Positions 35,600 through 38,730 of a stretch of DNA of 64,000 nt are shown here, in pieces. The stretch is from Candidatus Bathyarchaeia archaeon. GTDB lineage: Archaea > Thermoproteota > Bathyarchaeia > 40CM-2-53-6. The position numbers and the translations under genes are program-made. Position 1 is the stretch's first letter. Every line of letters starts with the position of its first letter. The notes beneath the pieces were generated by a model that was not told the DNA's origin, ran no database searches, and saw only the letters and a list, made by a program, of their open reading frames with translations. The stretch covers positions 224,001-288,000 of the forward strand of contig JBEKFP010000001.1 of assembly GCA_050013255.1 (NCBI GenBank), in the 5' to 3' direction.

Positions 35600-37042
35600 T
35601 TAAGAAGCGGCCGGGAGGCCGGCGAGTGTTCGGGCTAGGTCTTTCTTTCTTTCCAGGTCAGCTAGTTGTTTTATCGTCATTTGCGCGGCTGCAGGGGAGC
35701 CGCCGCCGTGCATGCAGAGCGCGCCTAGTCTCCCCGGGCCGGCAACCATGCTCTCGATGAGCCTAGCCACCCTCAACCTCTTTTCCGCCGTAACTCCATG
35801 CGAGCCACGATAGTACTTTTCCACCAGCGGGCCTATCTTCGGGTTTTTCAAATCGAGTTCGGATGGCATGGAGGATATCATTCCGCCGCCGATGTCTTCA
35901 GCTATCTTCTGAATCTCGTACGGGAGCCTTGTCACACTGATCTTGGTGACGTTGGCTAGGAGGGGGTCGGGGAACCATACGCCAGATGGCGTTGGCTGAC
36001 CCTCGTAAGCAGCACCTAAGGCTTGTGAGTATAAGGCCTCGGATAGGTACGTCATTTCAGCCAACCGGTCGGAGAGTTGCCTAGACAACCCATTGTATTC
36101 AGCCAGAAGTGCGCCAGCCCCAGTTAACACGTCACCACAACCCGCCAAACAACCGCCCAACACCATTCTATGGAGCAAAACGAACTTGGTCACGACATCC
36201 ACAGCGAAGTCGCACTCCCCGTTCATGAAAACGCGTTCTTTGGGAACGAAGACATCATCGAAAACCACGAGCGATTCGGATGAGCCGAAGTTAACGTTCC
36301 CCTTATCGAACCCTCCCTCCAATTTCCTTTCCCCGCCCGGCTGCATGTCAACAACTTGCATCACACCCTCCGCGTTCATTGGCACAGCGAAGGCGACGGC
36401 GTGCTCCTTCTCAGCTTCAGCGAACCCCGTGCCTGGTTGAACGATGATCTCGTGCGAGCCTATTGCGCCGCCAATCATACTCTTGGCGCCCCGCACTACG
36501 ATTCCTTTCTTATTCTCGTCCACTACTCTGAGGTAAACATCCTTGTCAGGTTGGTGTTTCGGTTTCAGGGACCGGTTGCCTTTCGGGTCTGTCAACGCGC
36601 CTGCGCAGGTTAGGTCTTTGCCTTGCACCATCTCGGCGTATCGTTTCAGCCGCTTGTGGTAGTCCGTGCCGAGTTGGGCGTCCATTTCATATGTTGAGTG
36701 CCAAAGCGCGTTGAGGGCGTCCCAACCACAGCAACGGCTCGCTGTACAGACTCCCGTCCATTGACAAACAAGTCGCGCCGCCTTAACGCGGTTTACCAGA
36801 TCCTCCCTGGACCTATGGATTGAGCAGTATGCGCTGATTTTCGACCCGGCTTCACCTGTTCTCGTTAGGAGGCTGTCGTACCTGGGCTGTTTGGAAAGGT
36901 TGTAGATTTCACCAATCCCTTCTAACGCCAGGCGTGTGAACGTGTTTTTTGTTACGTCTTGAATGCGGTCGCCGCGCATGTAGGCCTCAGACTTTAGCCG
37001 CTTCATGCTCTGGATGTATTGTTGTTTAGACTTTAGGACCAT
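35600..37042 (-). CDS. 4-hydroxybutyryl-CoA dehydratase-like protein (HpaB/AbfD family)
   Basis: TDPKGNRS, IVVRGAK, VFDDVFVP.ERVF, HR....GC and HGGGSP motifs. Confidence 0.85.
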   Translation of the reverse strand: MVLKSKQQYIQSMKRLKSEAYMRGDRIQDVTKNTFTRLALEGIGEIYNLSKQPRYDSLLTRTGEAGSKISAYCSIHRSREDLVNRVKAARLVCQWTGVCTASRCCGWDALNALWHSTYEMDAQLGTDYHKRLKRYAEMVQGKDLTCAGALTDPKGNRSLKPKHQPDKDVYLRVVDENKKGIVVRGAKSMIGGAIGSHEIIVQPGTGFAEAEKEHAVAFAVPMNAEGVMQVVDMQPGGERKLEGGFDKGNVNFGSSESLVVFDDVFVPKERVFMNGECDFAVDVVTKFVLLHRMVLGGCLAGCGDVLTGAGALLAEYNGLSRQLSDRLAEMTYLSEALYSQALGAAYEGQPTPSGVWFPDPLLANVTKISVTRLPYEIQKIAEDIGGGMISSMPSELDLKNPKIGPLVEKYYRGSHGVTAEKRLRVARLIESMVAGPGRLGALCMHGGGSPAAAQMTIKQLADLERKKDLARTLAGLPAAS

Positions 37043-37051
37043 GTAGAACCC

Positions 37052-38215
37052 TCAGAGGAGTTCGTTGGAAATCACGAGTCGTTGAATCTCTGATGTGCCC
37101 TCGTAGATTTCTGTGATCTTCGCGTCCCGGTAGTATCTTTCGAGGGGTAGGTCTGTCATGTAGCCGTATCCTCCGTGGATTTGTAATGCCTTTCGAGCGG
37201 CTTCGACTGCGGTTGATGCGGCGAAGAGCTTAGCCATGCTAGCCTCCTTCGTGTGTTTTCTACCTTGGTCTGTAAGGGTAGCAGCATGGTACGTGAGCAG
37301 TCTCGCGGCTTCAATTTCGGTCGCCATGTCCGCGATCATCCAACGAATCGCTTGTTGGTCGCTGATGGGTTTCCCGAATTGAACCCTCGTCCTTGCATGC
37401 TCGATCGCAGCGTCCAGGGACGCTTGGGCTATGCCTACGGCTTGTGCTGCAATGCTAATCCGCCCACAATCCAGCGTGTCCATTGCAATCTTGAATCCCT
37501 CCCCTGGCCGACCAAGCATGTTCCTTGCCGGAACTCGCACGTTATCGAAAATTACTTCAGAAACCATCGATGAACGTATTCCCATCTTATCAAATATCTT
37601 CCCAATCTTGACGCCAGGCATGTTCCGGTCAACGATGAAACATGATATGCCTCGGTGCGCGAGTGATTTGTCTGTCATCGCGAAGACGAGGTAGGTGCTC
37701 GCCATCGGAGCGTTCACGATGAAGTACTTGCGGCCACGAATCACGTACTCATCGCCGCTCAGCGTCGCCTTCGACTCCATCGACGCAACATCGCTTCCGG
37801 CTCCAGGTTCAGTTAAGCAGAATGACCCGAACTTCGAACCTTGGGCCAATGGTGTCAAGTAGAGCATCTTTTGCGGCTCGGTTCCGTACGATAGCAGTGG
37901 TTGGCTGACAAGTGATACGTGCACAGCTAAGGTAACCCCGAGGGCAGCGGAACCGCGGGAGATTTCCTCTACGGCAAGAATATAGCTCAGTACGTCTTGG
38001 CCGCCTCCTCCATACTTTCTTGGGATCGGCAGGCCAATCAGGCCGGCCTTAGCCATTGCGCGCCAAGTTTCTGTCGGGAATCTCTTGCTCTTGTCCCAAC
38101 CATCAGCCTTCGGTAAGACGAATTTCTCCGCGAAGCTACGGGCTCTTCGCAGCACATCTTCCTGGCGCTTACTTAATGCAGTTCTGTCAAGTTGTCGTCT
38201 GCTAATCAGTTTCAC
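37052..38215 (-). CDS. Acyl-CoA dehydrogenase
   Basis: LTEPGAGSD, R.QFGKPI, QIHGGYGY, IYEGTSEIQ motifs. Confidence 0.95.
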   Translation of the reverse strand: MKLISRRQLDRTALSKRQEDVLRRARSFAEKFVLPKADGWDKSKRFPTETWRAMAKAGLIGLPIPRKYGGGGQDVLSYILAVEEISRGSAALGVTLAVHVSLVSQPLLSYGTEPQKMLYLTPLAQGSKFGSFCLTEPGAGSDVASMESKATLSGDEYVIRGRKYFIVNAPMASTYLVFAMTDKSLAHRGISCFIVDRNMPGVKIGKIFDKMGIRSSMVSEVIFDNVRVPARNMLGRPGEGFKIAMDTLDCGRISIAAQAVGIAQASLDAAIEHARTRVQFGKPISDQQAIRWMIADMATEIEAARLLTYHAATLTDQGRKHTKEASMAKLFAASTAVEAARKALQIHGGYGYMTDLPLERYYRDAKITEIYEGTSEIQRLVISNELL

Positions 38216-38243
38216 TCGCCTGTTTGTTTTAATTGTGCATTCC

Positions 38244-38636
38244 AGCCATCCAGTGTTCAGTCATCAGTTGATGAAGCCGAGTCAACGGCGGGATGTGGGC
38301 TTTCGCCCGAATTAGCCGACTGGGCCGATGTTGGGTATCTGGTTGCTTTTGACCGAGCGTGAAACCCTGACTGTGCGAATGGTCTAGCTGGTTTCGTGAA
38401 TGCGAAACGAGAGCCCTGAGGTTCGGGGCCGTCGCGTCTGCAGGTGAAGCGATGGTATGGGAATCCGAGACTGACGGTAATCCCTCAGTCGATGCAGATG
38501 AGTCAAGGAGACGAAGACTTGACAGAACCCTTAATGCAAACTCCATACGAACCCCCATCAGGGGTAGCGTAAGTACCGGCAAATATCTGTTGGATACGAA
38601 CAATACTTACTATACCGATGGCTTCACCCGTTGATG
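38244..38636 (+). ncRNA. Candidate large structured ncRNA of unknown family
   Basis: More than 10 nested helices; G-U pairs consistently favour the + strand; no credible ORF; ends approximate. Confidence 0.6.
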
Positions 38637-38730
38637 CCTAAAATACTCTCTGAGAACTCACCCGAGCCGCTTGAGCAAAGGGTAACTATTCAGGCAAAGA
38701 AGCATCTTCGTTGCGCAGGGTCAGTGAATA

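What the first reader, a model, noticed from the sequence alone, without database searches (positions are those of the whole stretch)
38244..38636. ~390-nt ornate structured RNA upstream of Rieske-sufS-sufU
Seen: a 515-bp gene-free gap in an otherwise compact genome, densely filled with nested helices. These include CGGC/GCCG around GGGC-TTTC-GCCC; CTGGGCC/GGTCTAG enclosing GGGT/ACCC and GGTT/GACC; GTTTCG/CGAAAC; GCCCTGA/TCGGGGC; GTATGG/CCATAC enclosing GACTGA/TCAGTC and GTCAAG/CTTGAC; ACCCC/GGGGT; and GTAAGTA/TACTTAC. Long-range pairings include AGCCATC/GATGGCT, TGAAGCC/GGCTTCA and TCAACGG/CCGTTGA, some mutually exclusive or pseudoknotted. G-U pairs consistently indicate the + strand. It lacks the SRP helix-8 and RNase P GAGGAA signatures, though AGATGA...GACAGAACCC..TTA echoes the RNase P 3' region. 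Inference: a novel large ncRNA, ribozyme or switchable leader.
Basis: partly seen in the sequence, partly recalled or inferred. Interest (0 to 1): 0.8.

Follow-up and report, generated by a model that had tools for sequence, protein, structure and literature searches.

The report
Mini-transposon carrying a TnpB guide RNA
The "ornate RNA" is real, but it is the guide-RNA scaffold of the RNA-guided nuclease TnpB, carried by a 350-bp gene-less jumping element that landed in the first codons of a neighbouring gene; this makes it an unusual variant of a known system, not a new RNA class.

Summary
The folded RNA exists on the + strand and has no Rfam match. It is not a leader or a free-standing new ncRNA.

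- **What it is.** Window 38180-38529 is a 350-bp MITE with ~24-nt IS6-like terminal inverted repeats. It is flanked by an 8-bp target duplication, CTTAATGC.
- **It is an insertion.** Four sister species carry the precise empty site. The insertion lies in codon 5/6 of the acyl-CoA dehydrogenase gene, so the "gene-free gap" is an artefact.
- **Its relatives.** The genome holds 5-6 further copies. It also holds two 1.26-1.28-kb elements with the same ends that carry tnpB, and a 3.1-kb autonomous element with an IS6-like DDE transposase.
- **Link to TnpB.** The last ~120 nt of the MITE are homologous to the tnpB 3' end and right end, where omega RNAs are encoded.
- **Structure.** Covariation is strong: 28 of 81 pairs in 11 MITEs and 22 of 36 pairs in 40 sequences from Bathyarchaeia, Nitrososphaeria and Asgard archaea.
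- **TAM-like motif.** W-T-R precedes the left duplication in 15 of 15 elements, on the RNA side only.

Expression and TnpB binding are untested. Earlier notes of this scan reached the same reading on other copies in this genome. Verdict: new variant of a known kind, moderate interest.

The parts
38169..38171 (+). TAM-like motif TTA, immediately 5' of the left target duplication
   Evidence: W-T-R at -3..-1 in 15 of 15 independent insertions on the omega-RNA side, against 3 of 15 on the mirrored side. Also present at the empty sites of sister species.
38172..38179 (.). Left copy of the 8-bp target-site duplication CTTAATGC
   Evidence: Identical to 38530-38537. Orthologues carry a single copy.
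38180..38529 (+). Whole MITE (350 bp), an insertion specific to this genome
   Evidence: TIR plus TSD. Further copies in G000 and in other species. Precise empty sites in G014, G021, G018 and G004.
38180..38203 (+). Left terminal inverted repeat, (A)GTTCTGTCAAGTTGTCGTCTGCT, IS6-like
   Evidence: Complementary to 38506-38529. The same ends bound two tnpB elements, an autonomous DDE element and a SET-gene element.
38227..38234 (+). Putative archaeal TATA-like box (TTTTAATT), ~31 nt upstream of the conserved RNA start (inferred)
   Evidence: An A/T-rich box (TTTAAT, CCTAAAGG or CTTATA) sits at the same spacing in all copies, with a variable spacer after it. In the tnpB element L022 the tnpB ATG sits at this spacing. 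No expression data.
38260..38408 (+). 5' domain of the RNA: hairpin 38261-65 with 38270-74; helix 38276-83 with 38318-25 enclosing 38296-38300 with 38305-09; hairpin 38390-96 with 38403-08
   Evidence: Covariation: 6 of 8 and 5 of 9 pairs with double changes in the two main helices. No significant sequence match to resident tnpB. Short collinear remnants (CGATATGTGGGTT, GTGAATGC) and similar helices in tnpB-linked sequences.
38409..38529 (+). 3' domain, the conserved omega-RNA scaffold core: helix 38435-42 with 38493-38500; terminal hairpin 38502-07 with 38518-23; 3' end CAGAACC
   Evidence: 81% identical to the 3' end of tnpB element L021. Translates to the TnpB C-terminus (blastx E 7e-7). 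In 40 sequences from three archaeal groups, 91% of cells are paired against 24-40% when slid, with 22 of 36 pairs showing double changes.
38506..38529 (+). Right terminal inverted repeat. It overlaps the 3' arm of the last RNA hairpin
   Evidence: In tnpB elements the tnpB stop codon lies inside this repeat.
38530..38537 (.). Right copy of the target-site duplication CTTAATGC
38530..38549 (+). Predicted guide segment of the omega RNA: TSD plus native flank, length assumed ~16-20 nt (inferred)
   Evidence: Conservation among copies stops exactly at 38529. In TnpB systems the guide follows the right end (established knowledge; PMC8612924, PMC10055086).
38544..38546 (-). Original ATG of the acyl-CoA dehydrogenase gene, now cut off from its ORF by the MITE
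   Evidence: Removing the MITE and one TSD gives MEFALSKRQED..., which matches the orthologue's MEFTLSKRQED....
37052..38215 (-). Acyl-CoA dehydrogenase ORF as it now reads. Its first 13 codons (GTG at 38215) are encoded by the MITE left end
38538..38730 (.). Native single-copy intergenic DNA between the dehydrogenase and the Rieske gene.
   Evidence: One match per related genome. The hairpins ACCCC/GGGGT and GTAAGTA/TACTTAC are broken without compensation in orthologues.

Best explanation
Window 38180-38529 is a non-autonomous miniature transposon (MITE) of an IS6-like family. It has ~24-nt terminal inverted repeats and makes an 8-bp target duplication. Its only cargo is a tnpB-less omega-RNA gene on the + strand.

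**Shown**
- It is an insertion, with empty sites in four sister species, located in codon 5/6 of the acyl-CoA dehydrogenase gene.
- It is one of about six copies in this genome.
- Elements with the same ends carry tnpB (two copies), an IS6-like DDE transposase (autonomous, 3.1 kb), or a SET-domain gene.
- Its 3' ~120 nt are homologous to the tnpB 3' end and right end.
- The whole 270-nt core keeps a + strand secondary structure through compensatory changes.

**Inferred**
- The element arose from a tnpB element by deletion of most of tnpB. This joined the left-end promoter and start site to the RNA.
- It is moved in trans by the DDE transposase.
- Its transcript (about 38260 to 38549) is bound in trans by TnpB from the resident tnpB elements.
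- The RNA's guide is the DNA just past the right end, that is, the 8-bp duplication plus flank.
- This guide matches the unoccupied site, which is preceded by a (Y)WTR TAM-like motif. TnpB could therefore cut empty alleles, and repair from an occupied copy would spread or retain the element.

The confidence given is for the identity (a MITE carrying an omega-RNA gene). The functional steps listed as inferred are less certain, about 0.55-0.6.
For: - **Multicopy:**
- **TIR plus 8-bp TSD** in the window copy and in 14 other elements.
- **Empty sites** in G014, G021, G018 and G004. The reading frame of the dehydrogenase is restored when the element is removed.
- **tnpB elements with the same ends:** Pfam Cas12f1-like_TNB; NCBIfam guided_TnpB at 131.8 bits against a cut-off of 100; PDB relatives are TnpB and Cas12f.
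- **Homology of 38409-38529 to the tnpB 3' end:**. tnpB ORFs end inside the right repeat.
- **Autonomous element** G000:C1:182371-185509, with a perfect TSD and a SWIM + DDE_Tnp_IS240 transposase. A second one is in G017 (L059).
- **Covariation:**
- **TAM-like W-T-R:** 15 of 15 on the RNA side against 3 of 15 mirrored.
- **Co-occurrence:** full MITE copies were seen in six genomes of the genus, and five of these also hold this TnpB.
- **Literature:** gene-less IS200/IS605 derivatives that encode omega RNAs acted on in trans (PMC10055086); TnpBs inside DDE transposons with inverted repeats, and solo TnpBs mobilised in trans (PMC10691335).
Against:
- The start site, 3' end and guide length are therefore inferred.
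- TnpB binding and cleavage are untested.
- The 5' 150 nt have no significant sequence match in the resident tnpB genes. Their origin and role are uncertain.
- The transposase scores just under NCBIfam's IS6 cut-off: 114.8 against 125.
- IS6-type elements are thought to transpose replicatively, which leaves no empty donor site. The benefit of a homing nuclease is then less obvious than for IS200/IS605.
- The T at -2 is mildly enriched on the mirrored side too (9 of 15). Part of the motif may therefore be a transposase target preference.
Confidence: 0.82

Rival explanations
1. Inert relic. The MITE is only a transposition substrate. The fold is inherited from the parental tnpB element, and the RNA is either not made or not used.
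For: No expression or binding data. MITEs commonly retain internal fragments of their parents. The 3' domain still resembles coding sequence.
Against: - Helices are maintained by compensatory changes among MITE copies that have lost all coding constraint. This includes the non-coding 5' domain.
- A TATA-like box sits at fixed spacing in all copies.
- The oriented TAM-like motif holds for MITEs as well as for tnpB elements.
- Gene-less copies recur in Nitrososphaeria and Asgard archaea.
Confidence: 0.12
2. The structure acts as single-stranded DNA, for example as hairpins recognised during transposition as in IS200/IS605, and not as RNA.
For: TnpB is classically linked to IS200/IS605, whose ends work as ssDNA hairpins. 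G-T wobbles can also form in DNA.
Against: The elements have TIRs and 8-bp TSDs and pair with a DDE transposase, which indicates double-stranded transposition. The conserved folded part is internal cargo 270 nt long, not subterminal. It coincides with the region where omega RNAs are encoded.
Confidence: 0.03
3. One reading: a free-standing novel ncRNA, ribozyme or switchable leader controlling Rieske-sufS-sufU.
For: No Rfam family. Real covariation. It lies upstream of, and on the same strand as, the Rieske gene.
Against: Absent from the same locus in four sister species. The other copies lie in unrelated contexts. It is bounded by TIR and TSD and is homologous to the tnpB 3' end. Read-through into the operon is possible, but it would be incidental.
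Confidence: 0.02

Closest known systems
TnpB omega RNA (reRNA) of IS200/IS605 elements, e.g. ISDra2 (PMC8612924, PMC10097598); sense-overlapping transcripts of archaeal IS1341-type tnpB genes (PMC4615843)
   Same: A structured scaffold encoded over the tnpB 3' end that stops at the right end, with the guide taken from flanking DNA and a short 5' TAM next to the target. A possible loop-to-3'-tail pseudoknot (GGUUC with GAACC) has weak support: one compensatory change in the counts.
   Different: Here the scaffold is present without tnpB. It ends in a DDE-type inverted repeat, and the guide would begin with the 8-bp target duplication. No detectable sequence similarity to any Rfam model.
PATE-like gene-less IS200/IS605 derivatives that encode omega RNAs used in trans (Meers et al., PMC10055086)
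   Same: A non-autonomous, protein-less element whose cargo is a guide-RNA scaffold that depends on TnpB and a transposase encoded elsewhere.
   Different: PATEs have subterminal hairpins, no TIRs and no TSDs, and are moved by a Y1 HUH transposase. This element has 24-nt TIRs and 8-bp TSDs, and an IS6-like DDE partner.
TnpB branches associated with DDE transposases and inverted terminal repeats, and solo TnpBs with the same ends (Altae-Tran et al. 2023, PMC10691335; review PMC13565253)
   Same: TnpB and its omega RNA ride in a TIR-bounded DDE transposon and are mobilised in trans.
   Different: The texts read here name IS630 (PMC10691335) and ISL2 and IS1031 (review PMC13565253), not IS6. They describe tnpB-carrying elements, not RNA-only MITEs. 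The supplementary tables could not be checked.
IS6/IS26 family insertion sequences and their MITEs
   Same: 8-bp target duplication; repeats starting GG(C/T)(A/T)CTGTT, as in IS26 and IS257 (own knowledge); a DDE_Tnp_IS240 transposase in the autonomous element.
   Different: The transposase is about 416 aa long, carries an N-terminal SWIM zinc finger, and falls just below NCBIfam's IS6 cut-off. The elements carry passenger modules (tnpB, omega RNA, a SET gene). Insertion sites show an oriented flanking motif.

Membership tests
MITE (non-autonomous TIR transposon) | Terminal inverted repeats | tested here: met
   38180-38203 against 38506-38529. The same holds in 10 other copies.
MITE (non-autonomous TIR transposon) | Target-site duplication and empty sites in relatives | tested here: met
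   CTTAATGC on both sides. A single copy at the orthologous site in four species.
MITE (non-autonomous TIR transposon) | Small, multicopy, without a transposase gene, and with an autonomous partner that shares the ends | tested here: met
   350 bp. About 6 copies in G000. The only ORF is the antisense read-through from the disrupted gene, with no Pfam hit. Partner: G000:C1:182371-185509.
TnpB omega RNA | Encoded over the 3' end of tnpB and ending at the transposon right end | tested here: met
   38409-38529 is homologous to that region of two resident tnpB elements and of many others. The MITE itself lacks tnpB.
TnpB omega RNA | Conserved secondary structure on the sense strand | tested here: met
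   covariation scores of 0.42 and 0.29, against at most 0.09 for slid controls.
TnpB omega RNA | Target-adjacent motif 5' of the guide-matching sequence | tested here: met
   W-T-R in 15 of 15, orientation-specific. That it is read by TnpB is an inference.
TnpB omega RNA | Transcribed, bound by TnpB, and guides DNA cleavage | not testable with these tools
IS6 family | IS6-type DDE transposase in the autonomous element | tested here: inconclusive
   Pfam DDE_Tnp_IS240 at 59.8 bits, over its cut-off of 27. The best NCBIfam model is transpos_IS6, but at 114.8 bits against a cut-off of 125.
IS6 family | 8-bp duplication and GG-initiated short TIRs | tested here: met
IS6 family | Replicative cointegrate transposition | not testable with these tools
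   Needs a genetic assay.
IS200/IS605 PATE | Subterminal hairpins, no TIRs, no TSD, Y1 transposase | tested here: not met
   TIRs and TSDs are present. It works like a PATE but is not one.
Any Rfam family (RNase P, SRP, 6S, tmRNA, HEARO, OLE and others) | Match to the covariance model | tested here: not met
   No hit at gathering thresholds over 64 kb. Only U6 at E 3.5 in permissive mode. No tmRNA or tRNA.
cis-regulatory leader of Rieske-sufS-sufU | Conserved position upstream of the operon in relatives | tested here: not met
   Absent from the orthologous loci of four species. The other copies sit in unrelated neighbourhoods.

The most novel reading that the evidence does not exclude
The RNA-only MITE is a hyperparasite that borrows two machines at once. 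It uses an IS6-like DDE transposase to move and a TnpB made by sister elements to drive itself into empty alleles. The strictly oriented W-T-R motif next to the duplication would then mean one of two things: either site and orientation choice by the DDE transposon is coupled to the TnpB TAM, or TnpB-mediated homing is strong enough to purge every non-compliant insertion. The extra 5' domain would be an adaptation for capturing TnpB in trans.
Probability: 0.25. Interest if true: 0.65.

Novelty: new variant of a known kind. Interest (0 to 1): 0.42.

Why it matters
- **RNA-only spread.** The TnpB guide-RNA module can be stripped of its nuclease gene and still spread as a 350-bp element inside a DDE-type (IS6-like) transposon. 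Until now this was described for IS200/IS605 PATEs.
- **A handle on TnpB's role in a TSD-making transposon.** The family occurs in Bathyarchaeia, Nitrososphaeria and Asgard MAGs. Its oriented TAM-like motif gives a testable way to ask what TnpB does for a transposon that makes target duplications. In such a transposon the guide begins with the duplication and points at the unoccupied site.
- **Annotation.** The 'intergenic structured RNA' is an insertion that displaced the start of an acyl-CoA dehydrogenase gene. The conserved scaffold has no Rfam family, so a model built from these alignments would annotate many archaeal genomes.

Tried and rejected
- **Rfam, ARAGORN:** Rfam at gathering and permissive thresholds gave nothing usable. 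ARAGORN found no tRNA or tmRNA.
- **Single-sequence folding:** z-scores do not discriminate the strands.
- **blastx and nhmmer of the 5' domain against tnpB loci:** no significant match to resident tnpB. The only hits were further gene-less copies. Derivation of the 5' domain from tnpB coding sequence therefore rests on short collinear remnants and similar helices.
- **Ends of the DDE elements:** an inverted-repeat search around the two resident DDE genes did not show ends at first. A TSD-anchored search then found them for the C1 copy. The C2 copy (L029) has no recognisable ends.
- **Pseudoknot GGUUC with GAACC:** only 1 compensatory change in the counts, and the alignment is out of register in Nitrososphaeraceae. 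It remains a possibility only.
- **Supplementary tables of PMC10691335:** not held.
- **109-aa ORF inside the interrupted copy:** Pfam gave no hit.
- **Considered and rejected:**
  - RNase P, SRP or 6S: no model match.
  - Retron ncRNA: no reverse-transcriptase gene was seen near the copies examined (not searched for specifically).
  - Riboswitch or leader: empty sites in relatives.
  - IS200/IS605 PATE: TIRs and TSDs are present.

Full report
**1. Observation**

The gap 38216-38730 lies between an acyl-CoA dehydrogenase ORF (37052-38215, minus strand) and Rieske-sufS-sufU (38731 onward, plus strand). Rfam 15 finds nothing in the whole window at gathering thresholds. In permissive mode it finds only a junk U6 match. 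ARAGORN finds no tRNA or tmRNA. Folding the gap alone gives z = -2.6 on either strand, which is not decisive.

**2. The region is a repeat**

A DNA search of the window's own genome and 40 relatives showed that 38259-38529 is multicopy. Five to six further copies at 74-89% identity lie in this genome, and there are copies in several species of the same genus. Aligning the copies with their flanks gave these features:
- a conserved core beginning GTCATCAG and ending CAGAACC;
- a more variable ~80-nt left arm;
- ~24-nt terminal inverted repeats, GGTTCTGT(C/T)A.. and ..T(G/A)ACAGAACC;
- 8-bp direct repeats of flanking DNA that differ at each site.

In the window the element is 38180-38529, flanked by CTTAATGC at 38172-79 and 38530-37.

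**3. It is an insertion**

The orthologous dehydrogenase-Rieske loci of four sister species (G014, G021, G018, G004) are collinear with the window on both sides. They lack 38180-38529 and carry one copy of the 8-bp target. Removing the element and one duplication restores the dehydrogenase N-terminus MEFALSKRQED..., which matches the orthologue's MEFTLSKRQED....

The element therefore sits in codon 5/6 of that gene:
- The native ATG (38546-38544, minus strand) now reads antisense through the element to a TAA at 38231-38229.
- The annotated ORF restarts at a GTG (38215) inside the left end.
- The '515-bp gene-free gap' is this insertion plus about 190 nt of native spacer.

**4. What the element carries**

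Two partial matches to 38409-38503 lie at the 3' ends of two 383-404-aa ORFs. These ORFs are TnpB:
- Pfam Cas12f1-like_TNB;
- NCBIfam guided_TnpB at 131.8 bits against a cut-off of 100;
- PDB relatives are TnpB and Cas12f.

Both tnpB genes sit in 1.26-1.28-kb elements with the same inverted repeats and 8-bp duplications. Their ORFs stop inside the right repeat. The MITE's last ~105 nt still translate to the TnpB C-terminus (blastx E 7e-7). This is the region where TnpB omega RNAs are encoded (PMC8612924, PMC4615843).

A motif search of species-representative genomes found the same 3' domain in 39 stretches of DNA from Bathyarchaeia, Nitrososphaeria and an Asgard MAG. Some copies have tnpB and some do not. 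The record titles of the relatives identify the window's genus as peat or soil Bathyarchaeia.

**5. Structure**

| Alignment | Cells paired | Cells paired, partners slid | Pairs with double changes | Covariation score | Slid controls |
|---|---|---|---|---|---|
| 11 full MITE copies from five species, 81 consensus pairs | 95.8% | 30-42% | 28 | 0.291 | at most 0.056 |
| 40 copies of the 3' domain, 36 pairs | 91.2% | 24-40% | 22 | 0.419 | at most 0.086 |

- In the 11-copy set, no shuffle of 500 reached the observed value on four of five measures; 4 of 500 reached it for further pair types. In the 40-copy set, none did on any measure.
- Several pairs are invariant G-U, so the + strand is the functional one.
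- The search pattern fixed some invariant columns in the 40-sequence set. The helices it did not fix are the ones that covary.
- The non-coding 5' domain (38260-38408) is also held by compensatory changes: 6 of 8 and 5 of 9 pairs in its two main helices.
- The 5' domain has no significant sequence match in the resident tnpB genes. However, short collinear remnants occur (CGATATGTGGGTT from the zinc-finger codons, and GTGAATGC from the D-V-N-A codons). tnpB-linked sequences also show helices in a similar arrangement. I infer a deletion derivative of a tnpB element. Its 5' domain has since diverged free of coding constraint.
- A loop-to-tail pseudoknot (GGUUC with GAACC) is possible but has little covariation.

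**6.

Those inside 38260-38529 mostly hold, with two corrections that are listed in the observation check. Every pairing with an arm beyond 38529 joins the element to native DNA that the other copies do not share. This covers GTATGG/CCATAC and the three long-range pairs; CCATAC is in fact the complement of the displaced start codon. The two hairpins that lie wholly beyond 38529 (ACCCC/GGGGT and GTAAGTA/TACTTAC) are broken without compensation in orthologues.

**7. Who moves it**

- The genome has two SWIM + DDE_Tnp_IS240 transposase genes.
- One lies in a 3139-bp element, G000:C1:182371-185509. Its repeats, GGTTCTGTCAAAAG..., belong to the same family as the MITE's repeats, and it has a perfect duplication, CGCATCAG.
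- A 2031-bp autonomous element with a perfect duplication occurs in G017.
- NCBIfam's best model for the transposase is IS6, just under its cut-off.
- From my own knowledge, the 8-bp duplication and the GG(C/T)(A/T)CTGTT ends resemble IS26 and IS257.
- The same ends also bound a 439-bp element that carries a SET-domain gene.

**8. How it most likely works**

- A TATA-like box lies ~31 nt upstream of the conserved core in every copy, with a variable spacer between them. In the tnpB element L022 the tnpB ATG occupies that position. The left-end promoter, which would give a leaderless tnpB mRNA in the parent, probably starts the RNA at about 38260.
- Conservation stops at 38529. By analogy with TnpB systems, the guide would therefore be the next ~16-20 nt, namely the duplication plus native flank.
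- In 15 independent insertions the three bases 5' of the left duplication are W-T-R in all 15: T at -2 in 15 of 15, a purine at -1 in 15 of 15, and a pyrimidine at -4 in 13 of 15. The mirrored side complies in 3 of 15. The empty sites of the sister species carry TTA or TTG there.
- This reproduces the IS605 arrangement of TAM followed by guide target at the unoccupied site. It suggests that TnpB cuts empty alleles. Homologous repair would then favour the occupied copy.
- At the occupied site the guide match is preceded by GAACC. The left duplication offers only 8-9 matching bases.
- Co-occurrence is consistent with dependence on TnpB in trans. Five of the six genomes of the genus that hold full MITE copies also hold this TnpB, and the exception is an 89%-complete, 500-contig MAG. 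These genomes are related and incomplete, so this is weak evidence.

Expression, binding, cleavage and mobilisation are all inferred; none is shown.

**9. Comparison with what is known**

- Gene-less IS200/IS605 derivatives that encode omega RNAs used in trans are published (PMC10055086).
- TnpBs inside DDE transposons with inverted repeats, and solo TnpBs mobilised in trans, are also published (PMC10691335). A 2026 review names ISL2, IS630 and IS1031 partners (PMC13565253).
- I found no description of an IS6-like partner or of an RNA-only MITE of this type. I could not read the supplementary tables.
- Earlier notes of this scan, read only after my own analysis, describe other copies in this genome with the same reading, including the T-T-purine motif.

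**10. Verdict**

This is a new variant of a known kind, of moderate interest. What this locus adds is the set of precise empty sites and the hit in the dehydrogenase start.

Noticed in passing
L101 (G000:C1:681700-682300), element at C1:681799-682237: A 439-bp element with the same IS6-like inverted repeats and an 8-bp duplication (CAAAAGTG). It carries a 127-aa SET-domain ORF (Pfam SET, 53 bits) and nothing else, so a chromatin-type methyltransferase gene is riding as transposon cargo.
   Followed up: partly
L026 (G000:C2:82600-83800), element at C2:82803-83527: A sister MITE copy is split by a ~370-bp insertion inside the RNA's 5' domain. The insertion carries a 109-aa ORF on the opposite strand. 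Pfam gave no hit. An earlier scan note calls it an HNH nuclease.
   Followed up: partly
L027:298-407 (G000:C1:685797-685906): A ~110-bp remnant made of only the left and right ends of the element, with ~29 nt between them. It is either an even smaller deletion derivative or a decayed copy.
   Followed up: no
L032 (G004:C16:60000-67500), L030 (G014:C2:3000-9000), L033 (G021): The native dehydrogenase-Rieske spacer is an insertion hotspot in the genus. G004 has three separate insertions of ~0.8, 0.8 and 1.3 kb, one of which ends in the same omega-RNA 3' domain. G014 has a ~1.5-kb insertion and G021 a ~0.7-kb one, at sites 80-150 nt from the window's insertion. A GGTTCCGCTAACTTGTC left end abuts the spacer in three species.
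   Followed up: partly
window 38213-38231 (- strand): The junk ORF that starts at the displaced native ATG ends at a TAA only 13 nt before the GTG that restarts the dehydrogenase ORF. Translational re-initiation might therefore keep the gene expressed despite the insertion.
   Followed up: no
window 35600-37042 (- strand): A 480-aa HpaB-family protein lies next to the dehydrogenase. This family includes 4-hydroxybutyryl-CoA dehydratases of archaeal carbon-fixation cycles (own knowledge).
   Followed up: no
L028 around 400-420 (G000:C1:182350-182372): The right end of another TIR-type element (..CAACTTGACAGCGTC) lies 8 bp from the left end of the autonomous IS6-like element. This recalls the adjacent insertions typical of IS26.
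   Followed up: no
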